A stretch of DNA of 64,000 nucleotides from Candidatus Falkowbacteria bacterium (GCA_037137655.1 JBAXJX010000001.1:353188-417187), one strand, 5' to 3'; positions 29,318 to 57,769 are shown, counted from the stretch's first letter. Numbers and translations: made by a program. The notes: generated by a model from the sequence alone, not told the origin.

Positions 29318-29920
29318 TTATTTATTTTGACCATTCTGGAATTCTTTCATGCCATTTTTCAACTCCGCCATTTCTTTTTTCAACTCCACCACTTCAGCTC
29401 TTAAGCCTTCAACTTCTTTTTTCAACTCCGCTATTCTTATTTCACGATCAATCATAAAACTATTTACTTTCTCCAATTCGGCAATTTTCAATTTCAAATC
29501 TTCTTTTGACTTATTTAACTCCTCTTCGGCTTTTTTACGCTCAGTAATATCACGAATAGTTCCTTCGACATAAATAATTACCCCTTTATCATCTTTAACA
29601 ATATGACTGGAGACTGAAACGGGCACGTGCCGGCCATTTTTATGCAATAAAGTTAATTCATAATCATAAACAACACCACTGACAAATAATTTTTTCATGA
29701 AAACTTCGCGCTGGGCTGGCTCAGCGTAGAGATCAGTAACTGGGTGTCCAATTAATTCTTCTGGTTTCCATCCCGATAAAACAAAACAAGAGCGAGAAAG
29801 ATTAGTAATAATTCCCTGTCCATCAGCCTGATAATAAAGATCTACAAAATTATCTAAGATGCTTTGATAATTTTCATCTTCTTGGCGCAATTGAACTTCT
29901 AAATTTTTATCATTTTTCAT
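29318..29920 (-). CDS. PAS-domain protein with C-terminal coiled coil and no output domain
   Basis: PAS core (GIITNLSRSCFVLSGWKPEELIGHPVTDLY..HKNGRHVPVSVSSHIV..EGTIRDITERKKAEEEL), then about 60 aa of heptad-rich tail. Confidence 0.7.
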   Translation of the reverse strand: MKNDKNLEVQLRQEDENYQSILDNFVDLYYQADGQGIITNLSRSCFVLSGWKPEELIGHPVTDLYAEPAQREVFMKKLFVSGVVYDYELTLLHKNGRHVPVSVSSHIVKDDKGVIIYVEGTIRDITERKKAEEELNKSKEDLKLKIAELEKVNSFMIDREIRIAELKKEVEGLRAEVVELKKEMAELKNGMKEFQNGQNK

Positions 29921-32695: not shown

Positions 32696-32738
32696 AATTT
32701 TTGAAAAATTATTTTTATTAAATTATAGGTTTCAAAAT

Positions 32739-33167: not shown

Positions 33168-33176
33168 AAAATAAAA

Positions 33177-33680: not shown

Positions 33681-33681
33681 A

Positions 33682-35430: not shown

Positions 35431-35431
35431 A

Positions 35432-37595: not shown

Positions 37596-37596
37596 A

Positions 37597-38691
37597 TTAT
37601 TGTTGTGAGCCCATACCGCCTAAAAGATTGTAAATTGGCATAATAATTGCTAAGGCCACACCAATAACTGCAAACCACACGATAATTAACAATAGCGGCT
37701 CTAGAATAACGGTTAAATCTCGAACGGTTGTTTCGGTTTTAGCTTCATAATTAGAGCCAACTTTCATTAAAGCATCAGCCAGAGTACCGGATCGTTCGCC
37801 GGCAATAATCAATTTTTGAATTGAACTTGGAATTAAGTGGCGAGAGCCATGATAGGCATCAAACGATTGTTGAAAAGAATTTCCGTCTTCCAAGTTCTTC
37901 CCTAAAAATTTATAAAACTTTTTATAACGATAAGTATCACAAGATTGGATTAAAGAATTAACTGATTGTGTAATTGGTAATCCGGCTGCCAATAAAATTC
38001 CCAACAAATAACCGAAGCGTGACAACTCAACCTCACGCATTAAACGACCAACACCCGGCACAAGAAATAAAATTCCCTGACCAATACGCTTGGACCCCGG
38101 AAAGAAAAAAATAAAATAAGCTAGTGCTGTTATCGTTAAAATTATGGTCGGCACCGCTATCACACCATGACTACCTAGAAAATTAGAAAAAGTGATTAAT
38201 AAGCGCGTAAGCAACGGTAATTGCAAATGAAGTTGCGTAAAAACATTAGCTAGTTTTGGCAATACAAACCAAGAAATACCAACACCAATAAATCCAGTTA
38301 GACCAAGCACAAAAATTGGATAAGCTACCGCTGATCTAATGCGTGATTTAAAAATACGATTTTTTTGTTGCTCAGCACTAATGATTTGTAAATTTTCTGA
38401 AAGTCGACCAGACTCTTCACCGATACGAGCCAAGGAGATAGAGTGATCAGGAAACAATCCAGAAGATTCGAGTGCGCGCCACAAAGGCGACCCAGCCTCA
38501 ACGTCGTCTTTTATTTGAACAATAACTCTTTGCATGTGACGTGAGTCAATATCACCAGAAACAGCATCAATCGCATCAAAAATACTCATACCAGCGCCAA
38601 CTAGTATACCTAAATTTTCCATGAAACTATCACGACTCTTGCCTAAACCGACAGTGGATAGTGAATGACCAATTTTTTTAAAAATATTCAT
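37597..38691 (-). CDS. pilC: Type IV pilus platform protein (GspF/PilC family)
   Basis: Two GspF-type repeats (GSPLWRALESSGLFPDHSISLARIGEESGRL and GNSFQQSFDAYHGSRHLIPSSIQKLIIAGERSGTL) and 3 TM helices. Confidence 0.9.
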   Translation of the reverse strand: MNIFKKIGHSLSTVGLGKSRDSFMENLGILVGAGMSIFDAIDAVSGDIDSRHMQRVIVQIKDDVEAGSPLWRALESSGLFPDHSISLARIGEESGRLSENLQIISAEQQKNRIFKSRIRSAVAYPIFVLGLTGFIGVGISWFVLPKLANVFTQLHLQLPLLTRLLITFSNFLGSHGVIAVPTIILTITALAYFIFFFPGSKRIGQGILFLVPGVGRLMREVELSRFGYLLGILLAAGLPITQSVNSLIQSCDTYRYKKFYKFLGKNLEDGNSFQQSFDAYHGSRHLIPSSIQKLIIAGERSGTLADALMKVGSNYEAKTETTVRDLTVILEPLLLIIVWFAVIGVALAIIMPIYNLLGGMGSQQ

Positions 38692-38695
38692 GACT

Positions 38696-40366
38696 TTAAA
38701 CTATTTTTTTATCAAGATTTATTACTGGTGGTTCAGCCACACGAAGTAATTCATCTAAGGTGGTGATACCACCTTTAACCTTTTCAATGCCATCCTCAAA
38801 CAAAGATAGTGTTCCCTGCTTTCGGGCCAAATCCCAAACCTCGATTGAGGATGGAGACTTCAAAATTAATTCGCGCATCTCTTGGGTGTTTTTAATAAAT
38901 TCAAAAATAGCAGTCCGACCGCGAAAACCAGTGCCGTCACAAGTTGGACAACCTTTACCCTCGTACATTATAGCCTCCTTTTTTCCAAAAGCAGCTTTAG
39001 TCCAATAATCATTTAATGGAATTTTAGAAAGTGGGACTGTAACACTACGACGACAGTTTGTACAAATTTTGCGCACAAGACGTTGAGCTACGATTAACTC
39101 CAAGGTTGAAGACAATAAAAACTCTTCCGCCCCCATATCTAAAAGGCGTGGAATAGCCGTTGCAGCATCGTTAGCATGAAAGGTTGAAAACAATAAATGA
39201 CCAGTTAAAGCAGCGTTAATTGAAATTTCCACTGTTTCCTCATCACGAATTTCACCCACCAAAATTATATCCGGATCCTGACGAACAATAGAGCGTAAAC
39301 CTTTAGCGAAAGTTAAACCAGTTTGTTGGTTTACTTGAATTTGATTAATACCTAACATTTTATATTCCACTGGATCCTCAATAGTAGTAATGTTAACATC
39401 TGGTTCATCTAAAATTTTCAACAAAGAATAAAGAGTGGTTGTTTTACCAGAACCAGTTGGACCAGTAACCAAGATCATGCCAAAAGGTTTATTGGAGGCA
39501 ACTTTAAATATTTCTTGGTTCTCTTGTGATAGACCTAATTCCGATAAAGTAAGATTTTGCACATAAGCCGAAAGAACGCGCAATACCACCTTTTCCCCGT
39601 CAACCGTTGGCACAATTGAGGTACGCAAATCAACAATATTATCAACATCTTCATAGCGCATCGAACCGTCTTGAGCGGCAAAATGTTCGTCGATTCTTAA
39701 ATGACTTTGAACCTTAATACGATTTAAAATATTCTCATAATATTCCCGTGGGATACGACCAGCTTCCTGCAAAACACCATCAACTCGAAAACGCACCAAA
39801 ACACGGTCACGTTGTGGCTCAAGATGAATATCGGAAGCATGATAAGTTAAAGCATCTAAAATAATTTGTTCAATAATTTCCGGAGCAACACGTTTTTGAG
39901 TAGTAATAATTTGAGAAAATCTTGTCGCTAATGATTTACGGTATTGAGCTAAAGCTGAGTCAATATCATCACCACCAGAATAACATAAAACGATTTTCTT
40001 TTTTGGAAAAATTGGAGTTAAGGCTTCAATAATGCCGGGTTGCATCGGATTATCAGTTGTAATATAAATAACAGATTTCTTTTCAGTAAAAAAAATGGTG
40101 CGAAATTGCATAGCAATATCTTGCGGAATCATCATTATTTGCTCATGTGATGGCATGTTAATGTTAAGATTGGCATATGGCACGGCAAAAGCCTCAGCGA
40201 TCGCCTGATCCAAAATATCACGAGAAATTAATCCCTCGGATAATAAATATTCCACAATTGAAGATTCTCTTTTTTTAGCAAATTCTTCGGCAGTGGCAAT
40301 ATCATCCTCACTGACATAATTACCTTTAAGCAAGGCTTGCTTGATTGTAGCATCATCGAATTTCAT
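38696..40366 (-). CDS. pilB: Type IV pilus assembly ATPase (GspE/PilB family)
   Basis: N-terminal T2SE-N domain, Walker A GPTGSGKTTT, Asp/His boxes, tetracysteine CTNC..CPTC. Confidence 0.95.
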   Translation of the reverse strand: MKFDDATIKQALLKGNYVSEDDIATAEEFAKKRESSIVEYLLSEGLISRDILDQAIAEAFAVPYANLNINMPSHEQIMMIPQDIAMQFRTIFFTEKKSVIYITTDNPMQPGIIEALTPIFPKKKIVLCYSGGDDIDSALAQYRKSLATRFSQIITTQKRVAPEIIEQIILDALTYHASDIHLEPQRDRVLVRFRVDGVLQEAGRIPREYYENILNRIKVQSHLRIDEHFAAQDGSMRYEDVDNIVDLRTSIVPTVDGEKVVLRVLSAYVQNLTLSELGLSQENQEIFKVASNKPFGMILVTGPTGSGKTTTLYSLLKILDEPDVNITTIEDPVEYKMLGINQIQVNQQTGLTFAKGLRSIVRQDPDIILVGEIRDEETVEISINAALTGHLLFSTFHANDAATAIPRLLDMGAEEFLLSSTLELIVAQRLVRKICTNCRRSVTVPLSKIPLNDYWTKAAFGKKEAIMYEGKGCPTCDGTGFRGRTAIFEFIKNTQEMRELILKSPSSIEVWDLARKQGTLSLFEDGIEKVKGGITTLDELLRVAEPPVINLDKKIV

Positions 40367-40444
40367 AAATTTATATAATTTCCACTACTCGCGACAAAAC
40401 AGTCGATAACGAAGTATTGAATTTTAACATAAGATTCTAGAACA

Positions 40445-40837
40445 CTAAGCTAAGGCCTTTTTTACATCATTAATAATGTCAGCTAAATGCACATCGGCTT
40501 TAACATAAGTTGCAGTCACACCGAGATGAATGTAGGACTGAATTTTATCCGGACTAGCTGTATTGGAGACCACAAAAATTGGAATATTTTTAAACTTATC
40601 ACTACTTTTCAACATAATCACAAAATCCAAACCATCAGACTCGCCCAAAAGATAGTGATCCAACCAAATAGCATCAATTTTGTCAGGATTATCTAAAACT
40701 GCTAAAGCGGCATGCACCGAATTAACAGCGAAAACTTCGAAGCCAGCATAAGTTAATTTATCCTTAACAACCTCCTGTAAAGATGGTTCGTCTTCTAGAA
40801 CTAAAATTCTAAATTTTTCATTTTTATTTACAGTCAT
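40445..40837 (-). CDS. Single-domain response regulator (receiver only)
   Basis: 130 aa. ILVLEDE, IWLDHYL (acceptor Asp), VVSNT, YVKA. No output domain. Confidence 0.85.
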   Translation of the reverse strand: MTVNKNEKFRILVLEDEPSLQEVVKDKLTYAGFEVFAVNSVHAALAVLDNPDKIDAIWLDHYLLGESDGLDFVIMLKSSDKFKNIPIFVVSNTASPDKIQSYIHLGVTATYVKADVHLADIINDVKKALA

Positions 40838-40852
40838 AAATTTAAAATTAAA

Positions 40853-41221
40853 TTACAATATTTTTTTAACGTATTCCACTACCTCAGCCAAAGTAATATT
40901 AGATTTTATAAAAAAATCTTTAGCACCCAAATCTTTAGCGCGCTTCTCATCACCTTGCTGACTTAAATTCGACAAAATAATAACTGGAGTTTTTATACCC
41001 TCACGATTCATTTGCTCTAACACTGAGAAGCCATCCATTTTAGGCATGATCAAATCCATCAAAACTAAATCAACACTTTCTTTTGATAAATATTGTAGAG
41101 CACTTTCACCGTTAGGAGCTGTAGCTGTTTCAAAACCAACAATACCTAGCTTCAATTCTAAAGCATGGGCAATCGCTCGCTCGTCATCAACGATAAGTAT
41201 TTTCTTTTTAGCTGAAGCCAT
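40853..41221 (-). CDS. Single-domain CheY-like response regulator
   Basis: 122 aa. ILIVDDE, LVLMDLIMPKMDG, ILSN, FFIKS. Confidence 0.9.
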   Translation of the reverse strand: MASAKKKILIVDDERAIAHALELKLGIVGFETATAPNGESALQYLSKESVDLVLMDLIMPKMDGFSVLEQMNREGIKTPVIILSNLSQQGDEKRAKDLGAKDFFIKSNITLAEVVEYVKKIL

Positions 41222-41291
41222 ATATTTTTACAAAAATTTTCTAATATAATTATAACAAAAAATAAACTTTCCGACAAGAAAAATTATAAAA

Positions 41292-42815
41292 TTATTCCAA
41301 TCTCTTTGTACCATCTTTTTTAATCATGCCAGTTTTTGGTAAAAGCACAGTAAAGGTTGTGCCAATATTTTCTGTAGAAACAAAACTAATAGTGCCACCA
41401 CAACTATCAACAATCATCTTGGTCAAATAAAGCCCAAGTCCATTACCAGCCACATCAACCAAGCGAGCGTTATCAGAGCGATACAACTTACTAAATATTT
41501 TCGTCTGATCTAACGAAGGAATACCGATACCAGTGTCGCTCACCGTAATTTTTAAATTTTTACCTTCAATTTTAGCGGTAAATTTAACCTCACCGCCAAC
41601 TGGTGTATATTTAATGGCATTAGTAATTAAATTTTCAACAACGATGTGCATTAGCTGCCAATCAAGCATTATTGGTGGAATGAGTGCGTCATAGTCAAGA
41701 GAAAATTTTATAGACCGAGTTTTAATATTATGATCTTGTTCAAGTATGACGGTATTAACAACATCAGAAAATAAACACTCCTTCGGATCAATAATAAAAG
41801 TCCCAAGCTCGATACGAGAAACACTAAGCAAAGAATTAACTAAATTAATCATTCTTTGATTACCTAAATAAATTTCATCCAACAAAGTTCTTTGGACAAC
41901 TGGCACATCGCCAGCATCACCAGCCAGTAACATTTCTACATACCATTTTATAATTGAAAGCGGTGAACGTAGTTGATGTGAAGCTAAAGAGACGAATTCA
42001 GTTTTAGCTCGATCAATATTTTTTTCATTAGTTATATCACGCTCAATTCCGATAAAATAAAGAATGTTTTTATTTTTATCCAGCGCTGGAGAAATACTGG
42101 CGGTTGCATCATAAACCTCACCGTTTTTACGACGATTATTTAATTCACCAGTAAAAGTCGTTTTCTTATTTTTAATTGTATCCCAAAGTTTTTTGTAAAA
42201 ATCCAAAGACATTGGCATATTCCACAACTTCCCCGCTTTAGTTCCGATAACTTCCGCCCGACTATAACCGGTAATTTTTTCCACCATTTTATTGGCGTAA
42301 ATAACAATTCCTTCTGGATCAGTTATAACAATATGATCAGAAGCATTATCCACAGCCAATTTAAACTTTTCCAAATCATTAACAGCCGTATCAAATTTAA
42401 CCGCTTCTAATGCTAAATCACTGGTACGATTAGCTATTTCCAAGTTTAAACTTTTATTAGTGCTATTTAAATTACTAATAGCCCTCTCCAAACTAAGAGC
42501 TACGGAACCAACTGCCCCGGCCGAGTTTAATAAATCAGCTCCAATTTTTATATCAAAATTTTGCGCACCGATTTCCTTTATAATGCTATCAATTTTTTTA
42601 ATTTTTTTACTTTCCTCATTGGCATAAAAAATAGCCAAAGAAAGCAACAAAATAAAAAAAATCGCAATCAAAATTACAAAAGAATTAACATCAATTAGTC
42701 CGACTACGCCAAAACTGTTAAGTGAGAAATAAATCCAAAAAACTACAGATAGTAATAACAATAGGACAAGCAATATTATTAAATAAACAGCTGATCCTTT
42801 CTTTTGGGTGTTCAT
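41292..42815 (-). CDS. Sensor histidine kinase (2 TM with minimal loop, HAMP-like linker, PAS, HisKA, HATPase_c)
   Basis: H-box SLASHQLRSPL. N/G boxes LITNAIKYT and DTGIGIP, GNGLGL. PAS region SDHIVITDPEGIVIYANK. Confidence 0.9.
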   Translation of the reverse strand: MNTQKKGSAVYLIILLVLLLLLSVVFWIYFSLNSFGVVGLIDVNSFVILIAIFFILLLSLAIFYANEESKKIKKIDSIIKEIGAQNFDIKIGADLLNSAGAVGSVALSLERAISNLNSTNKSLNLEIANRTSDLALEAVKFDTAVNDLEKFKLAVDNASDHIVITDPEGIVIYANKMVEKITGYSRAEVIGTKAGKLWNMPMSLDFYKKLWDTIKNKKTTFTGELNNRRKNGEVYDATASISPALDKNKNILYFIGIERDITNEKNIDRAKTEFVSLASHQLRSPLSIIKWYVEMLLAGDAGDVPVVQRTLLDEIYLGNQRMINLVNSLLSVSRIELGTFIIDPKECLFSDVVNTVILEQDHNIKTRSIKFSLDYDALIPPIMLDWQLMHIVVENLITNAIKYTPVGGEVKFTAKIEGKNLKITVSDTGIGIPSLDQTKIFSKLYRSDNARLVDVAGNGLGLYLTKMIVDSCGGTISFVSTENIGTTFTVLLPKTGMIKKDGTKRLE

Positions 42816-44167: not shown

Positions 44168-44539
44168 CTAGATATGCATGGCATTGATCTCGGCCGCACT
44201 TATAACCGTGATACCATGACTTTTAGCGTAAGCTTCGACTTTTTTAATATAAGCGTTGCGAATAGTTGCGCTATAATCAAAGCTTGAGAACCTATTGATA
44301 ATCTTTAAAGCGGAGGCGTCCCACTTTAATGATGTTTTAGCACTAGAGCTTGAAGTAGTTTTCTTGGCAACTTTCTTAACAACTTTTTTCACAGTCTTTT
44401 TCTTAACAACTTTTTTAGCTTTAACAACAGTTTTTACCGTCTTTGCGGTGCCTGCCGTTGTCGCCGCACTAACCGGGGCAATGCCAATAAAAAAGCTAAG
44501 AAGCAAAATTAAAGTAAGTCCTGATATAATTTTTTTCAT
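44168..44539 (-). CDS. Secreted Lys-rich protein, unknown function
   Basis: Signal peptide ..APVSA|A, then VKTVVKAKKVVKKKTVKKVVKKVAKKT, then a small folded-looking C-terminus. Confidence 0.5.
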   Translation of the reverse strand: MKKIISGLTLILLLSFFIGIAPVSAATTAGTAKTVKTVVKAKKVVKKKTVKKVVKKVAKKTTSSSSAKTSLKWDASALKIINRFSSFDYSATIRNAYIKKVEAYAKSHGITVISAAEINAMHI

Positions 44540-44566
44540 AGAATATTGGCAATTATTATTTATTTA

Positions 44567-45055
44567 TTATTTTGCAGTTGATGTTGCAGCGTCAGCTGTT
44601 GTTACAGCAGCAGCTTTAGCGGCTTTCAAATCAGTCATAGCACTAGCGTAGGCTGTTTTTCTAGTTGCTTTAGCAGCAGCAGTTGCATCTTTACGAGCTT
44701 TTAGGGCAGCAGCTTTAGCTACTTTGTCTTTTCCAGCAACTTTAACAGCAGCAGCATATGTAGTGTTAGCATCTTTTACGCTAGCCTTGTAAGCAGTGTT
44801 AGCTGATTTAATAGCGGCAGCATAAGCTTGGTTGGCGCTTTTAACAGCGGCTGTATTTACATTAGTTTTTTTAACAGTTTTAACGATATTTTTTTTAACA
44901 ACTTCTTTTTTAACAACTTCTTTTTTAACAGTTCTAACAACAAGCTTAGGGTTATAAGATGTTACAACACCAGTACTGGTTTCAGCTGCCATGGCTGGAG
45001 AAGCAGCAATCGCTACTAAAGCTAAGCTCATAATCAATAAATTTACTTTTTTCAT
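44567..45055 (-). CDS. Secreted Ala/Lys-rich repeat protein, unknown function
   Basis: Signal peptide ..SPAMA|A. VKKEVVKKEVVKKNIVKTVKK, then 11-residue repeats. Confidence 0.5.
   Translation of the reverse strand: MKKVNLLIMSLALVAIAASPAMAAETSTGVVTSYNPKLVVRTVKKEVVKKEVVKKNIVKTVKKTNVNTAAVKSANQAYAAAIKSANTAYKASVKDANTTYAAAVKVAGKDKVAKAAALKARKDATAAAKATRKTAYASAMTDLKAAKAAAVTTADAATSTAK
44747..44845 (-). repeat. Three tandem 33-nt (11-residue) coding repeats
   Basis: VKSANQAYAAA / IKSANTAYKAS / VKDANTTYAAA. Confidence 0.7.
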
Positions 45056-45068
45056 AATCTTTTTTTAA

Positions 45069-45449
45069 TTAATAAATATTAAATAGTTGACGACGATAAC
45101 GACGCGCAATTTTTACGGCATACATTAACAATCCCAAATTAATAAACCAGAGTGCCATCTCGATTATTGGTAAAACCTCATTTAGACCACTAAAGAGATT
45201 AAATACGTAATCAAGACTAAAATCAAAATCACTTATCAGGGCTTTCACCACTGTTAGCGCTTCGGTTTCAGCAATCTGGCCATAAACATGAAGACTTAGG
45301 AACACAAAAACAAAAGATAGGGCGAAGAAAGTTACTAGTAAATAAAATCTAAATTTTATAACCAATAACTGCTTTTTAATCCTCAGCCTTAAATCAGTCG
45401 GAATCTCTTCCGCTGGAACATTTTTAAGTTGTTCTAATAATTTATCCAT
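45069..45449 (-). CDS. Membrane protein downstream of the ECF sigma factor (candidate anti-sigma)
   Basis: Called by position only. About 35-aa cytoplasmic N-terminus, then 2 TM helices. No HxxxCxxC motif. Confidence 0.35.
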   Translation of the reverse strand: MDKLLEQLKNVPAEEIPTDLRLRIKKQLLVIKFRFYLLVTFFALSFVFVFLSLHVYGQIAETEALTVVKALISDFDFSLDYVFNLFSGLNEVLPIIEMALWFINLGLLMYAVKIARRYRRQLFNIY

Positions 45450-45471
45450 ACATTTATTACCGTCTACGATT

Positions 45472-46014
45472 TTAATTGATTTTTTTCAATAACTCGGCCT
45501 TGGCGCGAGAAATATTGGTTTTAACCGTATTAAGCGGTATTTGTAAGATTTCACTAATTTCAACATAGCTAAAGCCTTGTTGATAATAAAGCCTGATAAC
45601 ACTCTCGTGACCCGACTTTAAGGATTTTAAAGCATTCTCCAAATCTAAATTGTTAATCTGCTCTATACTGTAATACGACAAGGAGAGTTCATTTGTTTCA
45701 AACTCAGCCGCTTCATCAATTTCTTGGGTTTTAGGTAGTCTTTTTTGCTTCTTTAACCAATCGTAAGCCGTATTCGTGGCAATCTTATATAACCAAGCAC
45801 GGAAATTTTTATCAGTATCTATTTTACTCCGGTTTTTATAAACCTTAATGAAAGTGTCTTGCGTCAAATCAAGAGCGTCATCAGAGTTACCAAGCAAACG
45901 ATAAAGATGATTATAAATTGCCGCCTGGTAAAAACTAACCATAGCATCAAAAGCTTTTAGGCTTCCCCGCTTAGCCGCAACAATTAAATTTTCATCAAAC
46001 ACCTGGGCTTCCAT
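45472..46014 (-). CDS. ECF-type RNA polymerase sigma factor (sigma-70 family)
   Basis: Region 2 (DALDLTQDTFIKVYKN..FRAWLYKIATNTAYDWLKK) and region 4 (VIRLYYQQGFSYVEISEILQIPLNTVKTNISRAK). Confidence 0.9.
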   Translation of the reverse strand: MEAQVFDENLIVAAKRGSLKAFDAMVSFYQAAIYNHLYRLLGNSDDALDLTQDTFIKVYKNRSKIDTDKNFRAWLYKIATNTAYDWLKKQKRLPKTQEIDEAAEFETNELSLSYYSIEQINNLDLENALKSLKSGHESVIRLYYQQGFSYVEISEILQIPLNTVKTNISRAKAELLKKIN

Positions 46015-46043: not shown

Positions 46044-46394
46044 TTAAATTTTTTCAAATTTCACACTTAAAATTGGACCGTATTTATTATTTTTTTCATC
46101 CGTAATCTCAATCTTCTCACCCTTAATAATTTGGGATAAGGCCATATTGCTAAGCATTTCTTTATCTGAGGCAATGTAAGTTTTTATTTCATCAATTTTA
46201 TCAAATTCTTCTTTTAAATCTGACTCTAGAACTGATTGGATTTTCTTTTTTTTCTCCTTAAGTTCTTTTAATTCCTCTAGGACTAATTGGTATTCTTGAG
46301 AATTAATCAAAACGCTTTTGTGAATGTCTTTTAAGATCTTTTGTTCACCTTGTTTTTCTCGAATACGATTAAAAATGTCTTGCACTTCTGCCAT
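46044..46394 (-). CDS. Small coiled-coil protein, unknown function
   Basis: 116-aa Glu/Lys-rich ORF between the kinase and sigma genes. Confidence 0.4.
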   Translation of the reverse strand: MAEVQDIFNRIREKQGEQKILKDIHKSVLINSQEYQLVLEELKELKEKKKKIQSVLESDLKEEFDKIDEIKTYIASDKEMLSNMALSQIIKGEKIEITDEKNNKYGPILSVKFEKI

Positions 46395-46462: not shown

Positions 46463-48880
46463 TTATTTTTGGTCTTTTTTTAGCGCTATTACCGTCTTAC
46501 CAGAACTAAGCGGTAAATTAATGAAGAAGGTTGTACCGATACTCTCGGTTGATTCAAACCAAATTTTACCACCCAAACGCTCAACAATAGCCTTGACTAT
46601 ATATAGCCCCAGACCGTTGCCGTCAGTGAAAAAAAGTTTGGCATTATTAGAACGAAAAAGCTTATTAAAAACCATGTCATGATCAGTACTTGGAATACCA
46701 ATTCCCTCATCTTTAACAACTATGACGATATTTTTTTCAGCTTCATTTAAACTTATTGATAAATCAACTTTTTTGCCAGCTGGTGTGTAATTGGTAGCAT
46801 TTGATAAAAGATTTTGAAAAACCATGCGCACTTGATCAGGGTCAGCCTTGATCATTGGGATATTATCGGCAATATTTTCCTTAAACTTTATTTTTTTATC
46901 TTGCATGATCATTTTTTGCTCCTCGATCACGTTACGAGCCAGTGCTGCCAAATCAACATCTTTTGGTTTATTTACAAAAGTGCCCATGTCTAGGCGTGAG
47001 ACATTAAGAATAGAATTAACTAAAATAATCATGCGCTTATTACTGCTGCGAATATCATCTAAGTATTCAATTTGTTCAGGATTTAATTCACCAACCTGTT
47101 TACTAATTAACATTTCCGTAAATAAACTAATGGCTGATAATGGAGTGCGCAATTGATGGGAAATCAAAGAGACAAACTCATCTTTAGAGTTCTCTAGTTG
47201 CTTGGCCTTGGTAATGTCACGTTCCACGCCAACAAAATAAACTATTTCATTTTTTTTATTAAACACCGGAGAAACAGTAAAGGCGACCGTATAAATTTCA
47301 CCATTCTTACGACGATTTTGTAACTCGCCAGAAAGAACCTTTTTATCTGTTTTTATAACTTTCCAAAAATTTTGATAAAACTCTAGTGGCATCGGAAGCT
47401 TCCATAAAACAGCTGCTTTTTTACCAACCGCCTCTTCAACTTTATAACCAGTCATTTGTTCAGCCATTTTATTAGCATAAATCACAATACCGTCCGGGTC
47501 GGTGATAACGATATGATCAGAAGACCCTTCCACAGCTAGACGGAATTTCTCCAAATCATTAGCCATAACTTCAGCCTTACGTCTTTCAATATCCATATCA
47601 CCCAACAAGGAAATAAGAGCTCTTTTTTGTTTATCAAGCTCCACGCTCTTTTCAGCTGATTCCGCGGCTTTATCACTAACCTTTTTATCCATCACACCAC
47701 TCCAGTCTTTCAATTTTTGTGCAGTTGTTAAAAAAGATTTAGACAAAGAATTTAATTCATCTTGCGCCTTAATAGTTTTATCATCAAAAGAAATATCAAA
47801 ATTACCAGCACTAATTTTTTCCAAAGCACTGTTAAATTTAGGAATTGGACGATAAATTAAATCAGCCAGTAGACGCGCTAAAAAAATAATTACAATAACG
47901 CTCAAAAAAATCTCAAAAATAGTTTCCCACAAAACTGCTTGAGCATTCGCAGTTATTTCACTCTTATCGATTTTTACAACTACACCCCAATTATTTTCCG
48001 GCAAATAACGCCATGATGACAAAACTTCTTTACCTCGATAATCAGCGGCCTGGCCATAACCCGAATTTCCACGAGCCGCTAGTTGGACTGGATCAGTGCC
48101 GGAATTTCCTAAAATTAAACGATTAAACGCCGCTTTAGGATCAAACCGAAGTGGATTCAAAAACATAGCCGCATCACCATTCTTGTTGTAAATATATCTA
48201 CTGTCGGTAGTTTTTGCGGTGGAGTCAACTAATTTAACCAAGTCAACTTCCAATGTAGCATAAGTTAAATAATCATTATTATTAGAATTATATATAGATG
48301 AGGCACTAACCTCAATCATTATAACGCCCAAAAAATCTCCGCTACTTTCGTATACTGGAGCACTAACCAAGAATTCTCCGCCTTTATCGCCAGGATAAAT
48401 ATCGCCATAATAAACTCCAGCCTGGCCGTTTCTAAAGGCAGTTGAACCAAAGCTGTAAAAATTATCACTAATAGCTCGATGTAATAATTGTTTATTGAGG
48501 TCGTAAACAATTACACCGTCAGAATTAACAAAAAAAATATTATTTGTTCCGTGATACTGTCCGGCCAATGATTTAAATTGCGAATCCAAATAAAGTAATG
48601 ACTTGTCGTATTCTGGACTACCAGGCTTATTACCGGTATCTGAAATTATTGCTAGATTTGATTTAATATAGTCATTATCTTTAATACCAATCTCACCATG
48701 AAAGATGTTAAGATTTAACTGAATATTATTAACCTCATTACTTAAAATTGTATCCAAAAAAGATCTATCTTTATTAGCTAGTAATTGCTGACCACTAAAA
48801 TAAGCCAAAGCCATTAATAAAATCAATGGTACTAAAGCAAGTAATAAATAGGTAAAGAAAATCTTTCTTTTAAACTTCAT
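46463..48880 (-). CDS. Sensor histidine kinase (dCache-like periplasmic domain, HAMP, PAS, HisKA, HATPase_c)
   Basis: TM1, about 290-aa external domain, TM2, HAMP (PIPKFNSALEKISAGNFD). The PAS region is paralogous to the 41.3 kb kinase. H-box SLISHQLRTPL. GNGLGL. Confidence 0.9.
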   Translation of the reverse strand: MKFKRKIFFTYLLLALVPLILLMALAYFSGQQLLANKDRSFLDTILSNEVNNIQLNLNIFHGEIGIKDNDYIKSNLAIISDTGNKPGSPEYDKSLLYLDSQFKSLAGQYHGTNNIFFVNSDGVIVYDLNKQLLHRAISDNFYSFGSTAFRNGQAGVYYGDIYPGDKGGEFLVSAPVYESSGDFLGVIMIEVSASSIYNSNNNDYLTYATLEVDLVKLVDSTAKTTDSRYIYNKNGDAAMFLNPLRFDPKAAFNRLILGNSGTDPVQLAARGNSGYGQAADYRGKEVLSSWRYLPENNWGVVVKIDKSEITANAQAVLWETIFEIFLSVIVIIFLARLLADLIYRPIPKFNSALEKISAGNFDISFDDKTIKAQDELNSLSKSFLTTAQKLKDWSGVMDKKVSDKAAESAEKSVELDKQKRALISLLGDMDIERRKAEVMANDLEKFRLAVEGSSDHIVITDPDGIVIYANKMAEQMTGYKVEEAVGKKAAVLWKLPMPLEFYQNFWKVIKTDKKVLSGELQNRRKNGEIYTVAFTVSPVFNKKNEIVYFVGVERDITKAKQLENSKDEFVSLISHQLRTPLSAISLFTEMLISKQVGELNPEQIEYLDDIRSSNKRMIILVNSILNVSRLDMGTFVNKPKDVDLAALARNVIEEQKMIMQDKKIKFKENIADNIPMIKADPDQVRMVFQNLLSNATNYTPAGKKVDLSISLNEAEKNIVIVVKDEGIGIPSTDHDMVFNKLFRSNNAKLFFTDGNGLGLYIVKAIVERLGGKIWFESTESIGTTFFINLPLSSGKTVIALKKDQK

Positions 48881-48887
48881 ATTTTAA

Positions 48888-49916
48888 TTAAACCTTAGAC
48901 TTTCCGTTCTTCTTATTATTAACGACGTCCTTCGATTCGATTATTCTTAGTTCCCTATCAATCATTATTTTATTAAGTTTCTCTAAGTCAGTATTTTTAT
49001 CCTTAAGTGCGACAATAGCTTGACCACTCTCAACTAATTCTCGACTAATTCTAGTATTATCAGCCACCAATCTATTTATTTTCTCCTTAAAATCATCAAT
49101 TTCCTTTTGATGTGAATCATTTGTCTCCTCTTTGGAGATGCGAAGAGTTTCAACCATACTGTTAAAATTCTTGGCCAAGTCACTCATTTCATCTTTACCT
49201 GATTTAATATCAGCCTTAACACTAAAGTCACCAGCACTAACCTTCATTGCCAAATCATTAAGCATGGCAATTGGTTTTGATAAATTTAAATAAAAAGGAA
49301 TACACAAAAAAATCATGATAATAAAGACTGCCAAAAATGACATGGCAATTTCGCGATACGCTCCAAACAATTGATTATTTAAAGAATCAAAAGAAAATAT
49401 ATAACGCATTACTAGAACGTGCCCACCAGAAATTTCTTTAATCGGCACAAAATACTCTAACACTTTTTGACCCATAAAATCAGACTCATGATAAGATGAT
49501 TCTTCGTTGGTAAGCGCATTGAGAGAGGCTGCATCACTGACCGACCGAACAACATCGCCCGTATATCGCCCAGAACTCAACTCATTGGAGTCAAACAATA
49601 TCCGACCATTAACTGATATTAAAGAGGCATTAATAATATCTTTATTGGTGGCAAATTTTGCTTCCAAACGATCTTTGAAAAATTGAAAATCCTGTTCATC
49701 GGGCTGGGCGTAAAAAGTAATATAATCCTGGTAAATTGACTGGGCACTAAACTCAGAAAATATTTTACCCCGCGTCACAATATCATTATAGAATTCATTG
49801 CGCTGACTGATTAATGAAACCGATGAGAATATCAATAAAGATAAAAATATCAAGATAACCCCAAAGAAACCAATTTTTACAGCCAAACTATTATAATTTA
49901 TTTTAAATTTTTCCAT
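48888..49916 (-). CDS. HAMP-domain membrane protein without an enzymatic output
   Basis: TM1, about 170-aa external domain, TM2, HAMP (KPIAMLNDLAMKVSAGDFSVKADIKSGKDEMSDLAKNFNSMVETL), coiled-coil tail. No H-box or ATPase. Confidence 0.7.
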   Translation of the reverse strand: MEKFKINYNSLAVKIGFFGVILIFLSLLIFSSVSLISQRNEFYNDIVTRGKIFSEFSAQSIYQDYITFYAQPDEQDFQFFKDRLEAKFATNKDIINASLISVNGRILFDSNELSSGRYTGDVVRSVSDAASLNALTNEESSYHESDFMGQKVLEYFVPIKEISGGHVLVMRYIFSFDSLNNQLFGAYREIAMSFLAVFIIMIFLCIPFYLNLSKPIAMLNDLAMKVSAGDFSVKADIKSGKDEMSDLAKNFNSMVETLRISKEETNDSHQKEIDDFKEKINRLVADNTRISRELVESGQAIVALKDKNTDLEKLNKIMIDRELRIIESKDVVNNKKNGKSKV

Positions 49917-49946
49917 ACTTATTACTTATTATTTAATAATAAAATA

Positions 49947-51344
49947 TTATTTTTTATTATTACTATCCAAAATTAATTGAACTCTGGACGCAGCATCATC
50001 TAGGGCTTGCTTAACATCCTTACCAACCCAAGCCGCTTGAATTTGTTCCATTAAAGTTGCTTTAATTTTAGCTGCCTGTAAAACATTTGGTTCTGGAGTT
50101 GAAGAACTAAGTTGGGCAATGAACGGAGCTTTAAATGTATTACTAACCAACACATCCTTATTAGCACTAGAAACTAAATCAACTTTACGATCCGGAATTG
50201 CTTTAATAGTTCTGGCTAATAAATCACCATAACGCGTAGTGCCACTTGGTTGAACATCTTCCGTAAACCAACGTAAGAAATCCCAAGCCGCTTTTTTGTT
50301 TTTAGATTTATTCATAACACCAACGAACCAGCTGTATTGTAATGAATTTGGTTTAGAAAAATATGGCACCGAAGTTACACCAACCTCTTGATCAAATCTA
50401 GTACCCATTTGATCTCTAAAAGTACCTTCTGTCCACGGAGCCACAAAAGCCATGGCAGCTTTATCATTGCTAAAATCCCAAACATTAGAATTGGCGTCGG
50501 TATAACCTTTTTTGAAAAGATCAACAATTGAAGTTAACACCTCAACACCTTTAGCGTCATTAAACATCGGCTTGCTATTATCAGCTGACAAATAGCTACC
50601 ACCATTACTAAATAATAATGATAGAAATGGATCAACCACGGCCCAATCAACACCTTTTGTAAAAGCAAAACCATATTTAATAATATTTCCTTTAGTATCT
50701 TTTTTGGTAATCTTTTTTGCGGCCGCAACCACATCATCCCAAGTTTTTGGCGCCAAAGCATTACCATCAGCGTCAACAATGCCAGCGTCCTTGAACATCT
50801 TTTTATTATAAATCAAAGAATAATCATTAACTTCGCCCGGGATACCCCAAACATTTCCATCAATCACCACACCAGATTTAGAAACATAATTAGCTTCCAC
50901 ATCAGCTTTAATATCTTTTGGTGGAACATCAAGCAAACCCTCTTTAGCATAAGAAACTCCCCAAGGAGAATAGATTTGAAAAATATCCGGAGCCTGATCG
51001 ATATCGTTTAGTAATTTTATCTTAGCTTCATAATCAGCGTAAGGCACAGTCAAAACGCTAATATCCACATTTGGATGAAGTGTCATGTATTCATCAAGAT
51101 ATTGTTTAAATCCCTTTTCCTTTAACACGCCATTTTCATAAACACCTTCTAGTTGATATTTTTCCGTCCAATGGGCAGCGTAAACTAATTTTATTTTATC
51201 ACCGTTTGTCACCGGACTAACAACTGGGTTGTTATTTTTTGGAAGACTAGAGATTTCCGGTTTTGTTTTTATAAATAAAACGATAAACACGGCCACTAGC
51301 ATAAGCAATATGGTCGCTGTTAACAGAACAAGCTTTTTGTTCAT
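49947..51344 (-). CDS. Extracellular solute-binding protein (ABC family-1/sugar type), TM-anchored, with no transporter partners nearby
   Basis: N-terminal anchor. Motifs DIFQIYSPWG, WGIPGEVNDYSLIYNKKMFKDAGI, PKTWDDVVAAAKK are typical of sugar SBPs. Confidence 0.8.
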   Translation of the reverse strand: MNKKLVLLTATILLMLVAVFIVLFIKTKPEISSLPKNNNPVVSPVTNGDKIKLVYAAHWTEKYQLEGVYENGVLKEKGFKQYLDEYMTLHPNVDISVLTVPYADYEAKIKLLNDIDQAPDIFQIYSPWGVSYAKEGLLDVPPKDIKADVEANYVSKSGVVIDGNVWGIPGEVNDYSLIYNKKMFKDAGIVDADGNALAPKTWDDVVAAAKKITKKDTKGNIIKYGFAFTKGVDWAVVDPFLSLLFSNGGSYLSADNSKPMFNDAKGVEVLTSIVDLFKKGYTDANSNVWDFSNDKAAMAFVAPWTEGTFRDQMGTRFDQEVGVTSVPYFSKPNSLQYSWFVGVMNKSKNKKAAWDFLRWFTEDVQPSGTTRYGDLLARTIKAIPDRKVDLVSSANKDVLVSNTFKAPFIAQLSSSTPEPNVLQAAKIKATLMEQIQAAWVGKDVKQALDDAASRVQLILDSNNKK

Positions 51345-51479
51345 ATTATTGAGTTCGAATAATTAAACAAATTTAAAATTAAATTTTTTAATTTTAATTA
51401 TTCTTTTAAAAAATATCTTTCACTTATTATATCATTTTATGAAACTTTGGGCAAAAAAATAACAGCAACAATATTGAAC

Positions 51480-56542: not shown

Positions 56543-57769
56543 TTAATTACTTGGAGTTAAATATCTAATAATAACTACACCTGAACCACCGGCAAGTCCA
56601 TAACTACCAAAAGCACCGCCTCCACCGCCTCCACCGGTATTTGGAGTGCCAGCACTAGTACTACCGCCAGTTCCTCCACTGCCAGTGCCACCAGCACCAT
56701 TAGTACCACCACCAGCAGTATAGCCAGTACCTCCGCCGCCGCCAGCATAATAAACACTTGAGCCACTTATACCATAAGAACAACCGATACCGCCAGCGCC
56801 ACCAGAATATCCATATGTTGTATGACCAGCCGCGCCACAACCGCCACCGCCCGGAGCAGCATTATAACCTGACCAAGCGCCGCCACCGCCATTATTACCT
56901 TGTCCGACCATCCCGGTACCGCCCGGATCACCAGCAGTACTACCGCCACCACCAGAGCCGCCGCTTCCAGCCACGCCGCCAGAACCACCAAAAGCGCCGC
57001 CGCCGCCGCCATAAGCAGTTATACCACTAAATACCGAATTACCACCATTACCACCATTACTGGCTGGTGTTCCACCGGCACCGATTGTCACACCATAAGC
57101 CTGAGCGCTAACCGCATAGGACGAACTAGAAACTAAACCACCGGCACCACCACCGCCGCCATAATGATAACCACCAGCACCACCACCCGCCACAACTAAA
57201 ATTTCAATATTACCAGCACTGTTCGGCGTGAATGTTCCACTATTATTAAAAGTATGAATTGTATAAAGACCGCTAGTCGTAATTGTACCACCATTCGCCG
57301 CAAAAGTTACTGGGGTACAATCAATATTTGAAACACCACTTGGAGTGGCGCATTTAAATCCTGGTGCGCTAGCTGCGACACTACCGCCAAGACAATAAGA
57401 TAAAGTGTAAGAGCTGCCATCACTGGATGATAAATAACCATAAGCCCGATTAGCGGCGCTCGTGCAAGATCCGTCAGCCGGAGTTGGCGGTGTTGGAATT
57501 ATTGCCATGTACGTTGTCGTGCCTAAAGTTGAAGTAGAAAAAATTGAACCAGAATTAAATTCCCCTTTTGTTGGATAGCGCTGCTGATCATTGAAAAATA
57601 ATTCGAGCGCAGTTTGGATTTGTTTGACGTCAGCCACGCGACGCGCGTCACGCGCTTTAGCTCGAGCATTTTGTAAAGCCACAACTGCAATCGTCGCTAA
57701 AATGCCGATAATGGCGATAACAACAAGGAGTTCGATAAGAGTAAAGCCGCGTTTATTTTTTGGTGGCAT
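56543..57769 (-). CDS. Type IV pilin-like protein with large glycine-rich C-terminal domain
   Basis: MPPKNKRG|[24 protein letters not shown]. Pilin head with Cys pairs. Then about 240 aa of Gly-rich sequence from [24 protein letters not shown] to [10 protein letters not shown]. Confidence 0.8.

What the first reader, a model, noticed from the sequence alone, without database searches (positions are those of the whole stretch)
46463..51344. Orphan solute-binding protein + HAMP-only membrane protein + dCache histidine kinase: a possible three-part extracellular sensor
Seen in sequence. Three consecutive minus-strand genes are separated by 30 and 7 nt. First, a TM-anchored family-1 (sugar-type) ABC substrate-binding protein, with no permease or ATPase gene anywhere in the window. 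Second, a 342-aa protein with TM, ~170-aa external domain, TM, HAMP and a coiled coil, but no H-box or ATPase. Third, an 805-aa kinase with a ~290-aa dCache-like external domain, HAMP, PAS, HisKA and HATPase. Established knowledge: binding proteins can act as co-sensors for kinases (LuxP-LuxQ, TorT-TorS, ChvE-VirA). Inference: the SBP reports a ligand, possibly a host-derived sugar, to the kinase. The HAMP-only protein may act as an adaptor or modulator, perhaps by pairing with the kinase through HAMP or coiled-coil regions. I do not know of a described SBP/HAMP-adaptor/kinase triad.
Basis: partly seen in the sequence, partly recalled or inferred. Interest (0 to 1): 0.6.

Follow-up and report, generated by a model that had tools for sequence, protein, structure and literature searches.

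The report
Binding protein, kinase-less sensor, docking kinase
A small uncultured bacterium pairs an orphan sugar-type binding protein with a membrane sensor that has no enzyme part. That sensor ends in a conserved helix shared by many enzyme-less sensors, which probably plugs it into the kinase encoded next door.

Summary
The three genes are real and laid out as described, in a Candidatus Falkowbacteria genome. The window holds no ABC permease or ATPase gene.

The conserved unit is the pair, not the triad. The solute-binding protein (SBP) sits next to the HAMP-only protein in all 13 related loci I could read, once in swapped order. The same SBP plus external-domain pair occurs in a Desulfobacterales genome, fused there to a complete hybrid kinase. 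The kinase follows in only some relatives.

The HAMP-only protein is not a broken kinase. Its length is conserved. It ends in a conserved C-terminal helix (ELEKLNxFMVGRELKMIELKK). That helix also caps many sensor-only proteins built from PAS, HAMP, GAF, Cache or SBP domains, none with a catalytic output.

In Aeromonas, Paroceanicella and Vitreoscilla, such capped sensor genes overlap a hybrid kinase gene by 4 nt. Seven of eight kinases next to capped sensors, including the 805-aa kinase here, carry a second helix motif ([KR]x[KR]xALLNMMED). None of 54 other kinases carries it.

Best reading: the SBP loads the kinase-less transducer, whose cap docks onto that kinase helix. The docking is inferred, not shown. 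I found no description of the cap or the kinase helix in Pfam, NCBIfam or the searched literature.

The parts
49947..51344 (-). Orphan family-1 (CUT1, sugar-type) solute-binding protein, 465 aa, with an N-terminal membrane anchor. Proposed ligand-loading partner of the external domain of the next gene.
   Evidence: PF01547 E 1.4e-31. The closest solved structures are oligosaccharide SBPs: 7bvt, 5ci5, 4qrz and GacH. It is adjacent to the HAMP-only family in 13 of 13 loci.
48888..49916 (-). Kinase-less transmembrane transducer, 342 aa. Order of parts: TM1, WalK-like single Cache/PAS external domain, TM2, HAMP, long coiled coil, C-terminal cap.
   Evidence: Pfam finds HAMP only. The 11 family members are 313-342 aa long. 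There is no conserved His after HAMP. The AlphaFold model has pLDDT 81.
49350..49811 (-). External sensor domain of the transducer (residues 36-189). Proposed SBP docking site.
   Evidence: The best Foldseek matches are the WalK extracellular domain: 7dud and 4ywz, TM 0.64-0.68 on the target. An external-domain-only profile hits the Desulfobacterales hybrid kinase in L099 at E 9.5e-48, and SBP_bac_5-linked kinases at E 1e-11 to 1e-14.
49140..49286 (-). HAMP domain of the transducer (residues 211-259).
   Evidence: PF00672, 44.7 bits. The closest solved HAMP is Af1503.
48927..49007 (-). C-terminal cap helix (residues 304-330, LKDKNTDLEKLNKIMIDRELRIIESKD). Proposed docking or output element.
   Evidence: It is conserved across the family. 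A cap profile finds 150 best representatives at 53 bits or more, almost all at the extreme C-terminus. No Pfam or NCBIfam model covers it.
46463..48880 (-). Sensor histidine kinase, 805 aa. Order of parts: TM, dCache-like external domain, TM, weak HAMP, coiled coil, PAS, HisKA, HATPase_c. Proposed recipient of the transducer's signal.
   Evidence: Its orthologue in L096 scores 900 bits and follows an SBP plus HAMP-only pair.
47597..47632 (-). Kinase helix motif KQKRALISLLGD (residues 417-428), between HAMP and PAS. Proposed counterpart of the cap.
   Evidence: The same motif is in 7 of 8 kinases encoded next to cap-terminated sensors. It is in 0 of 54 other kinase ORFs, and it is absent from the paralogue HK507.
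51426..51454 (-). Promoter-like site upstream of the SBP gene (TTGCCC, 17 nt spacer, TATAAT with an extended TG).
   Evidence: This is a consensus match only, and such sites are not enriched over shuffled sequence.
29318..29920 (-). Second cap-terminated sensor of the same genome. It is a cytoplasmic PAS domain plus coiled coil plus cap (LEKVNSFMIDREIRIAELKKEV), 200 aa. It is a possible second input to the same kinase.
   Evidence: The cap profile hit is E 1.6e-12. PAS is the only real domain found.
46044..46394 (-). 116-aa ORF of unknown function directly downstream of the kinase. It is conserved in the same position in L096.
   Evidence: phmmer E 7e-54 to L096 14602-14958. No Pfam family matches.

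Best explanation
The locus encodes a split, SBP-dependent sensor kinase system.

The membrane-anchored sugar-type SBP captures a ligand outside the cell. It docks on the WalK-like external domain of the dimeric 342-aa transducer. The change passes through TM2, HAMP and the long coiled coil to a conserved C-terminal cap helix.

The transducer has no catalytic output of its own. Its cap engages the helix KQKRALISLLGD, which lies between the HAMP-like region and the PAS domain of the 805-aa kinase encoded 7 nt downstream. This tunes the kinase's autophosphorylation. The kinase would thereby combine its own dCache input with the SBP-derived input. It may also take input from the second capped PAS sensor at 29318-29920.

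Shown: the gene layout, the domain anatomy, the strict SBP-transducer linkage, homology of the external domain to SBP-linked full kinases, the recurrence of the cap on sensor-only proteins, and the co-occurrence of the cap and the kinase helix in adjacent genes.

Inferred: SBP-to-external-domain binding, cap-to-kinase contact, the direction of regulation, the ligand, and the downstream response regulator.
For: 1. The SBP and the HAMP-only gene are adjacent in every related locus with readable flanks: the window, L001/2, L003/4, L006-8, L010, L013, L014, L096, L097 and L098. In the P0014 contig the order is swapped. This SBP type is absent from 80 loci of generic HAMP proteins.

2. In L099 (Desulfobacterales) an SBP 43% identical to this one is followed 30 nt later by a 792-aa hybrid kinase (HAMP, PAS, HisKA, HATPase, REC). 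Its external domain matches the family's external-domain profile at E 9.5e-48. More distant kinases with this external domain each follow an SBP_bac_5 gene and precede a receiver gene.

3. No permease or ATPase gene is in the window or beside any relative (and the context calls).

4. The cap is a real module. Its profile gives 8,541 representatives at E<=1e-3, and the 150 best score 53 bits or more. The cap ends a median of 9 aa from the C-terminus. Among 89 such proteins of at least 180 aa, Pfam finds PAS (42), HAMP (28), GAF (13), dCache (8), MASE1/3, PocR, CHASE4, REC, CBS and SBP domains. No HisKA, HATPase, GGDEF, EAL or MCPsignal is among the listed families.

5. Link to kinases. All three true cap hits in annotated replicons of cultured Proteobacteria overlap a hybrid kinase gene by 4 nt. 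These are Paroceanicella L100, Aeromonas L101 and Vitreoscilla L102. Vitreoscilla has the same SBP, capped sensor, kinase order as the window. In L083 a PAS-cap gene overlaps a dCache-HAMP-PAS kinase gene. In L096 the orthologous kinase follows the pair.

6. The motif [KR]x[KR]xA[LI][LI][NS][LM][LM][EGSD]D is found in 7 of 8 kinases next to capped sensors and in 0 of 54 other kinase ORFs. Fisher p is 1.6e-8, and the regular expression was derived post hoc. It is absent from 304 other proteins, including 24 kinases. It is also absent from the window's paralogue HK507, which is 42% identical.
Against: - The kinase is not next to the pair in L003 (cold-shock protein and helicase follow), L006, L097, the P0014 contig, or the 680 bp after the gene in L002. 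The partnership is therefore not obligatory in cis, or the partner differs.
- The kinase after the transducer in L010 (a GAF kinase) lacks the helix motif.
- The kinase-helix pattern was written after seeing the seven sequences. The control set of 54 kinases is a convenience sample.
- No physical interaction was modelled or measured.
- The window protein's cap is slightly degenerate (ESK in place of ELK).
- The kinase has its own large dCache domain, which could bind the SBP directly, as LuxQ-type domains do.
Confidence: 0.5

Rival explanations
1. One reading: the SBP docks directly on the dCache-like external domain of the 805-aa kinase, as LuxP does on LuxQ. The HAMP-only protein is only an accessory modulator.
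For: SBPs are known to bind dCache-like domains of kinases such as LuxQ, VirA and CBP-dependent ChiS (review PMC8050422). The three genes are tightly packed. The triad is kept in L096.
Against: The SBP follows the HAMP-only protein, not the kinase. The pair is intact where no kinase is adjacent. The same SBP plus external-domain pair occurs with a kinase that has no dCache domain (L099).
Confidence: 0.15
2. The SBP-transducer pair works independently of any kinase. The cap is a generic dimerisation or stability helix, or it binds a non-kinase partner such as type IV pilus machinery, a receiver-only protein or nucleic acid through its Lys-rich tail. On this view, kinase adjacency reflects ordinary clustering of signalling genes.
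For: More than half of the CPR loci lack an adjacent kinase. Capped sensors also cluster with one another (L039, L097, L098). The tails after the cap are often Lys-rich. The window carries receiver-only genes and pilus genes downstream.
Against: There is a 4-nt overlap with a kinase gene in 3 of 3 proteobacterial cases and in L083. Partner kinases share a specific helix motif. A simple dimerisation helix would not need such strict sequence conservation across phyla.
Confidence: 0.2
3. The SBP is primarily a transport protein for an ABC importer encoded elsewhere in the roughly 965-kb genome. It contacts the transducer only secondarily, as MalE does with Tar or GltB with GtrS.
For: The protein is a normal full-length CUT1-type SBP. 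Only 64 kb of the genome could be read. Dual-function SBPs are known (PMC8050422).
Against: There is no permease or ATPase gene in the window or next to any of the 13 relatives, including the Desulfobacterales one. CUT1 SBP genes normally sit beside their two permease genes (my own knowledge).
Confidence: 0.08
4. The HAMP-only ORF is the decayed or frameshifted N-terminal half of a former SBP-dependent kinase and has no function.
For: Its N-terminal 290 residues are homologous to those of full kinases. NCBIfam aligns it to the N-terminal half of WalK.
Against: The 11 family members are 313-342 aa long and 31-67% identical to the window protein. They share invariant residues in the external domain, HAMP and the cap. 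Real stop codons are followed by unrelated genes. The kinase that follows has its own start codon, TM segments and sensor domain, and is out of frame.
Confidence: 0.02

Closest known systems
LuxP-LuxQ, TorT-TorS, ChvE-VirA, HptA-HptS, GltB-GtrS: SBP-stimulated sensor kinases (reviewed in PMC8050422)
   Same: An SBP gene lies next to the gene of a membrane sensor. The SBP acts, or is proposed to act, as the ligand-binding subunit. GltB is also SBP_bac_1. Many of these SBPs have no transporter of their own.
   Different: In those systems the protein that receives the SBP is itself the kinase. Here it has no transmitter at all. The kinase is a separate polypeptide with its own sensor domain.
BasB-BasT and CosB-CosT of Halobacterium salinarum (SBP plus HAMP-containing transducer; listed in PMC8050422)
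   Same: A co-encoded SBP feeds a membrane transducer that has HAMP and no kinase domain. That transducer signals to a separate kinase.
   Different: BasT and CosT carry the methyl-accepting signalling domain and act through CheA and CheW. The protein here has no MCPsignal domain, and the output element is a 30-40 aa cap.
Af1503 of Archaeoglobus fulgidus, the 'orphan receptor' that gave the first HAMP structure (PMC3570549, PMC3585426)
   Same: A membrane receptor made of TM, external domain, TM and HAMP, with no recognised output domain. It is the best HAMP sequence match in the PDB.
   Different: Af1503 ends with HAMP. The protein here continues for 80 aa of coiled coil ending in the conserved cap. 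No similarity was detected outside HAMP. I could not check whether Af1503 has an SBP neighbour.
WalK (YycG) with its accessory membrane proteins YycH and YycI
   Same: The external domain and the TM-sensor-TM-HAMP layout are the best structural and NCBIfam match. WalK is also a kinase regulated by separately encoded membrane proteins (PMC8534201).
   Different: WalK carries its own PAS, HisKA and HATPase. YycH and YycI act through TM and extracellular contacts, have no HAMP or cap, and no SBP is involved.
Stand-alone sensor proteins that regulate an adjacent kinase (H-NOX-HnoK, NosP-NahK; my own knowledge, and the NCBIfam family name 'near_NosP_CTERM')
   Same: A sensor-only protein is encoded next to the kinase it controls by protein-protein contact.
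   Different: Those sensors are soluble single-domain proteins without a shared docking helix. Here many different sensor architectures share one C-terminal cap.
Signaling helix (S-helix; Anantharaman, Balaji and Aravind 2006, PMC1592074)
   Same: The segment before the cap in most capped proteins is an S-helix with the ERT signature, for example LEQRVQERTAEL.
   Different: That paper reports the S-helix as lying almost always between two signalling domains. Here it is followed only by the cap and a stop codon. The window protein itself has DNTRIS in place of ERT.

Membership tests
SBP-stimulated sensor kinase module (LuxPQ/TorTS type) | The SBP gene is adjacent to the gene of the membrane sensor it serves. 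| tested here: met
   The gap in the window is 30 nt. The two genes are adjacent in 13 of 13 related loci.
SBP-stimulated sensor kinase module (LuxPQ/TorTS type) | The SBP-receiving protein carries a histidine-kinase transmitter (HisKA plus HATPase_c). | tested here: not met
   The 342-aa protein has HAMP only. The feature is met in the relatives L099, L009, L011 and L095.
SBP-stimulated sensor kinase module (LuxPQ/TorTS type) | Physical binding of the SBP to the sensor's external domain. | not testable with these tools
   Only monomer structure prediction is available, and no binding assay can be run.
Histidine kinase (HisKA family), for the 342-aa protein | A conserved phospho-acceptor His in an H-box, and a HATPase_c domain. 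| tested here: not met
   The single His after HAMP (DSHQKE) is not conserved in the family alignment. There is no HisKA or HATPase hit even at E<=10 on the C-terminal part.
HAMP domain proteins (PF00672) | A Pfam HAMP match above the gathering score, directly after a TM helix. | tested here: met
   44.7 bits against a cut-off of 25, at residues 211-259, after TM2 at about residues 183-205.
Methyl-accepting chemotaxis proteins | An MCPsignal domain (PF00015). | tested here: not met
   No hit. The 'methyl-accepting chemotaxis protein' labels given by JGI to relatives rest on HAMP alone.
ABC importer substrate-binding protein, family 1 (CUT1) | The SBP_bac_1 fold or sequence family. | tested here: met
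   PF01547 at 111 bits. The PDB relatives are oligosaccharide SBPs.
ABC importer substrate-binding protein, family 1 (CUT1) | Encoded together with two BPD_transp_1 permease genes, with or without an ATPase gene. | tested here: not met
   None is in the 64-kb window or in the flanks of the 13 relatives. The rest of the genome could not be read.
Af1503-like output-less HAMP receptors | The protein ends with HAMP, and the external domain is related to that of Af1503. | tested here: not met
   About 83 residues follow HAMP. Only the HAMP region aligns to the full-length engineered Af1503 (4cq4).
S-helix (signaling helix) | A coiled coil of about 40 residues with a central ERT signature. | tested here: inconclusive
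   The window protein has DNTRIS. Relatives P0010, P0014 and L098, and most capped proteins, have ERT.
Cap-terminated sensor-only proteins (class defined here) | The motif ELExxNxxMV[GD]RELKM[IV]ELKK lies within about 30 aa of the C-terminus, and there is no catalytic output domain. | tested here: met
   The cap is at residues 304-330 of 342. HAMP is the only Pfam domain.
dCache sensor kinases, for the 805-aa protein | A dCache_1 match above the gathering score, plus HisKA and HATPase_c. | tested here: inconclusive
   dCache_1 scores 32.9-33.2 bits against a cut-off of 45, although it covers profile positions 58-239 of 240. HisKA and HATPase_c are clearly met.

The most novel reading that the evidence does not exclude
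The C-terminal cap (ELERMNxxFVGRELKMIELKK, usually after an S-helix) and the kinase helix ([KR]x[KR]xALLNMMED) are the two halves of an undescribed docking interface. On this reading, hundreds to thousands of sensor-only proteins across CPR bacteria, DPANN archaea and Proteobacteria plug into separately encoded histidine kinases through it. These sensors are built from PAS, GAF, HAMP, Cache, MASE, PocR or SBP domains. One kinase could then collect several interchangeable sensors, much as chemoreceptors share one CheA. The Falkowbacteria SBP, transducer and kinase trio would be one instance of this.
Probability: 0.4. Interest if true: 0.85.

Novelty: new variant of a known kind. Interest (0 to 1): 0.7.

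Why it matters
SBP-assisted kinases and accessory proteins of kinases are both known. A kinase-less HAMP transducer that stands between an orphan SBP and a kinase is not, as far as I could find.

The larger point is the cap. Genome annotation leaves many PAS, GAF and HAMP proteins labelled only as 'domain-containing protein' with no output. A shared C-terminal docking helix and a matching helix on kinases would give these orphans a testable output.

It would also explain how small genomes such as those of CPR bacteria get several inputs from very few kinases. It would offer a natural plug-and-socket pair for engineering sensors.

Cultured hosts (Aeromonas caviae, Vitreoscilla filiformis, Paroceanicella profunda) make it testable by genetics.

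Tried and rejected
- **Metagenome scan.** The scan with the family alignment was swamped by generic HAMP hits and gave no new family members. Those 80 loci served only as a control set.
- **GTDB scan.** It found only two members. One is labelled Gammaproteobacteria, probably through mis-binning.
- **H-box mimic idea.** I considered whether the cap is a degenerate H-box (GRELKM against SHELRTP). The spacing from the S-helix differs by about 6 residues, and HisKA does not hit it, so I dropped the idea.
- **Family models.** Neither Pfam nor NCBIfam has a model for the cap. The only weak hit is the S-helix part of an HD-GYP regulator linker.
- **Literature string searches.** Literal searches for the cap and for the kinase helix found nothing.
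- **Plasmid searches.** tblastn with a deltaproteobacterial-type cap consensus found nothing at E<=1e-3. At E<=10 it found Rhizobium and Ensifer kinases that have only the S-helix and no cap. Two further cap variants gave no new records.
- **L002 downstream region.** I read the sequence after the gene in L002 as a tRNA, but ARAGORN does not call one.
- **L010.** The GAF kinase there does not carry the kinase helix.
- **Selection test.** I did not attempt dN/dS, because the relatives are too divergent.

Full report
**Observation.** They lie at 49947-51344 (465 aa), 48888-49916 (342 aa) and 46463-48880 (805 aa), all on the minus strand, with gaps of 30 and 7 nt.

Pfam calls the first SBP_bac_1/SBP_bac_8. 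It calls the second HAMP and nothing else. It calls the third PAS, HisKA and HATPase_c, with a sub-threshold dCache_1 match and a weak HAMP.

Hydropathy gives one N-terminal anchor for the SBP. It gives two TM segments flanking about 154 external residues in the HAMP-only protein, and two flanking about 285 in the kinase.

The 64-kb window has no ABC transporter. The only ABC signature belongs to a UvrA-like ORF, and none of the five polytopic membrane ORFs resembles a permease. No terminator-like site separates the three genes, and the best promoter-like site lies upstream of the SBP gene. A public record names the identical proteins as Candidatus Falkowbacteria, a CPR/Patescibacteria lineage, on a 965-kb contig.

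**The conserved unit is the pair.** The HAMP-only protein belongs to a small family. There are 11 members among 5.8 billion protein clusters. All are 313-342 aa long and 31-67% identical to the window protein.

Wherever flanking DNA was available, an orthologous SBP gene is adjacent:
- L001/2, L003/4, L006-8 and L010, where a fragment of the SBP C-terminus is present
- L013, L014, L096, L097 and L098

In the P0014 contig the order is reversed, with HAMP-only first and the SBP 10 nt later. None of 80 loci of unrelated HAMP proteins holds this SBP type.

The kinase is not a constant member:
- Its orthologue (900 bits) follows the pair in L096, after an inserted 214-aa gene. It is followed by the same 116-aa ORF as in the window.
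- A GAF kinase follows in L010.
- A second SBP plus an sCache-HAMP kinase follows in L098.
- Unrelated genes follow in L003, L006, L097 and the P0014 contig. Only non-coding DNA is left in L002.
- No permease gene is near any of them.

**Who receives the SBP.** The AlphaFold model of the HAMP-only protein (pLDDT 81) shows a single PAS/Cache-type external domain. Its best structural matches are the extracellular domain of WalK. NCBIfam also aligns residues 8-271 to the N-terminal half of WalK.

A profile of the external domain alone hits, at E 9.5e-48, the external domain of a 792-aa hybrid kinase in a Desulfobacterales genome (L099). That kinase has HAMP, PAS, HisKA, HATPase and REC. Its gene lies 30 nt after an SBP 43% identical to the window's.

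More distant kinases with this external domain (about 28% identity) each follow an SBP_bac_5 gene and precede a receiver gene. One of these loci carries a TFIIB gene and so is archaeal.

The SBP and this external domain therefore travel together while the cytoplasmic end varies. This argues that the SBP docks on the HAMP-only protein, not on the kinase's dCache domain.

The SBP itself has more than 100 homologues at 42-77% identity in Patescibacteria, DPANN archaea and a few other phyla. Its solved relatives are oligosaccharide-binding CUT1 proteins at low identity. The ligand class is suggested, not established.

**The HAMP-only protein is capped, not truncated.** After HAMP comes about 80 aa of predicted continuous helix. 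The one His there is not conserved.

The family ends in a conserved motif, LEKLNxFMVDRELKMVELKK. In the window protein it reads LEKLNKIMIDRELRIIESKD, at residues 304-330.

The same motif ends other output-less proteins in loci fetched for other reasons (L016, L039, L083, L097, L098). It also ends a second protein of the window, a 200-aa PAS protein at 29318-29920.

A 41-position profile of the motif was searched against 1.84 billion representative proteins. It gave 8,541 hits at E<=1e-3. That figure is an upper bound, because the profile is a short coiled coil. The best 150 all score 53 bits or more. In these the motif ends a median of 9 residues from the C-terminus.

Of 89 such proteins of at least 180 aa, Pfam finds PAS in 42, HAMP in 28, GAF in 13 and dCache in 8. 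It also finds MASE1, MASE3, PocR, CHASE4, REC, CBS and SBP domains. Among the 25 families the tool listed, of 38 matched, there is no HisKA, HATPase, GGDEF, EAL or MCPsignal.

The motif is usually preceded by an S-helix with its ERT signature. The S-helix was described as lying almost always between two signalling domains (PMC1592074). Neither Pfam nor NCBIfam has a model for the cap. Literal literature searches for it found nothing.

**Link to kinases.** I searched the annotated plasmid and replicon collection with cap variants. It returned only three true hits, all in cultured Proteobacteria. In all three the capped sensor gene overlaps the start of a hybrid histidine kinase gene by 4 nt:
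- *Paroceanicella profunda*: a sensor with 2x SBP_bac_3, 3x PAS and the cap, then a HAMP-PAS-HisKA-HATPase-REC-Hpt kinase.
- *Aeromonas caviae*: a TM sensor with 2x PAS and the cap, then a DUF4118, 4x PAS, kinase, REC and Hpt protein.
- *Vitreoscilla filiformis*: an SBP-like gene, then TM-CHASE5-TM-PAS-cap, then a PocR, 3x PAS, kinase and REC protein.

The Vitreoscilla locus has the same three-part order as the window. In L083 a PAS-cap gene overlaps a dCache-HAMP-PAS kinase gene.

Comparing these kinases revealed a second motif in a linker helix: [KR]x[KR]xA[LI][LI][NS][LM][LM][EGSD]D. It reads KQKRALISLLGD in the window kinase (residues 417-428, between HAMP and PAS), RALISLLED in L096 and KAILNILED in L083. 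It reads TAIMNMMED in L098, RAALNMMSD in Paroceanicella, LAALNLMDD in Aeromonas and RGALSMMED in Vitreoscilla.

The pattern matches 4 of the 59 distinct kinase ORFs in all loci held, and these 4 are exactly the ones next to capped sensors. It matches none of 304 other proteins, including 24 kinases. It is missing from HK507, the window kinase's 42%-identical paralogue, which has no capped sensor next to it.

Counting 7 of 8 partner kinases against 0 of 54 others gives Fisher p = 1.6e-8. Two cautions apply. The pattern was written after seeing the seven sequences, and the control set is a convenience sample.

**Model.** Ligand-loaded SBP docks on the external domain of the dimeric transducer. 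The signal passes through TM2, HAMP and the coiled coil to the cap. The cap contacts the ALLNMMED-type helix of the 805-aa kinase and modulates it.

The kinase thus integrates its own dCache input, the SBP input, and possibly the cytoplasmic PAS-cap sensor.

The anatomy, the linkages and the motif co-occurrence are shown. All contacts, the sign of regulation, the ligand and the response regulator are inferred. Candidate response regulators are the two receiver-only genes at 40445-41221, next to HK507 and type IV pilus genes.

Where no kinase is adjacent, I assume the partner is encoded elsewhere. This is the weakest point of the model.

**Rivals.**
- *A kinase-independent role of the cap.* It fits the loci without kinases, but not the 4-nt overlaps or the shared kinase helix.
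- *A transport role for the SBP.* It cannot be excluded without the whole genome, but no context supports it.
- *A decayed kinase fragment.* It is refuted by the conservation of length, sequence and cap.

**Comparison with what is known.** SBP-stimulated receptors (LuxPQ, TorTS, ChvE-VirA, HptAS, GltB-GtrS, BasB-BasT) and accessory proteins of kinases (YycH/I, and stand-alone sensors such as H-NOX) are established (PMC8050422, PMC8534201; the stand-alone sensors from my own knowledge).

The nearest output-less HAMP receptor is Af1503, called an orphan receptor (PMC3570549). It shares only HAMP with this protein.

The locus works like an SBP-dependent kinase. It fails the membership test at the defining point: the SBP-receiving protein has no transmitter.

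I therefore rate it a new variant of a known kind. The cap and kinase-helix pair is the part that may be new in kind.

Noticed in passing
window 29318-29920 (-): A 200-aa cytoplasmic PAS protein ends in the same C-terminal cap (LEKVNSFMIDREIRIAELKKEV) as the HAMP-only protein. It lies between the UppP and ribosomal protein L1 genes, with no kinase beside it.
   Followed up: partly
window 32240-42815 (-): A second kinase, HK507 (41292-42815), is 42% identical to the 805-aa kinase in its cytoplasmic part and lacks the ALLNMMED-type helix. It is followed by two receiver-only genes (40445-41221), PilB (38696-40366), PilC (37597-38691) and several pseudopilin-like genes. This suggests that two-component signalling may feed type IV pili.
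   Followed up: partly
window 44168-46014 (-): An ECF-type sigma factor (45472-46014) is followed by a small TM protein that may be an anti-sigma factor (45069-45449). Two secreted Lys/Ala/Val-rich repeat proteins follow (44168-45055). All lie directly downstream of the kinase and the conserved 116-aa ORF.
   Followed up: no
window 56543-57769 (-): A 408-aa protein has a type IV prepilin-like N-terminus ([10 protein letters not shown]) and a long Gly-rich C-terminal region (GGGGAGG repeats).
   Followed up: no
L097 1-3019 and L098 11447-14653: Patescibacteria and DPANN-like contigs carry further orphan SBP-kinase modules beside the pair studied. One is Peripla_BP_4 plus a PAS kinase plus a receiver. 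The other is ABC_sub_bind plus an sCache_3_2-HAMP kinase plus a receiver. Orphan SBPs as co-sensors may be common in these small genomes.
   Followed up: no
L002 11130-11450: Downstream of the HAMP-only gene is a stretch with tRNA-like 5' and 3' ends (GGTGGCGCAGCGGTAGCGC ... GGTTCGAATCCGACCCCGGGAGCA) separated by about 250 nt. ARAGORN calls no tRNA. It may be an intron-containing tRNA or another RNA.
   Followed up: partly
L013 (CAZDYJ010000009.1): The record is titled 'uncultured Gammaproteobacteria bacterium'. It carries an SBP plus HAMP-only pair 49% identical to the CPR family, so the bin label is probably wrong.
   Followed up: no
P0162, P0176, P0240: These are exceptions among capped proteins. 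P0162 has two caps in tandem. P0176 and P0240 have an extra C-terminal domain of about 70-80 aa after the cap (…LILDSARHENLFKELI…), of unknown family.
   Followed up: no
L101 2922-4031: In Aeromonas caviae, the capped sensor and hybrid kinase pair is preceded by an overlapping REC-HD-GYP response regulator gene. This hints at a c-di-GMP output for that system.
   Followed up: no
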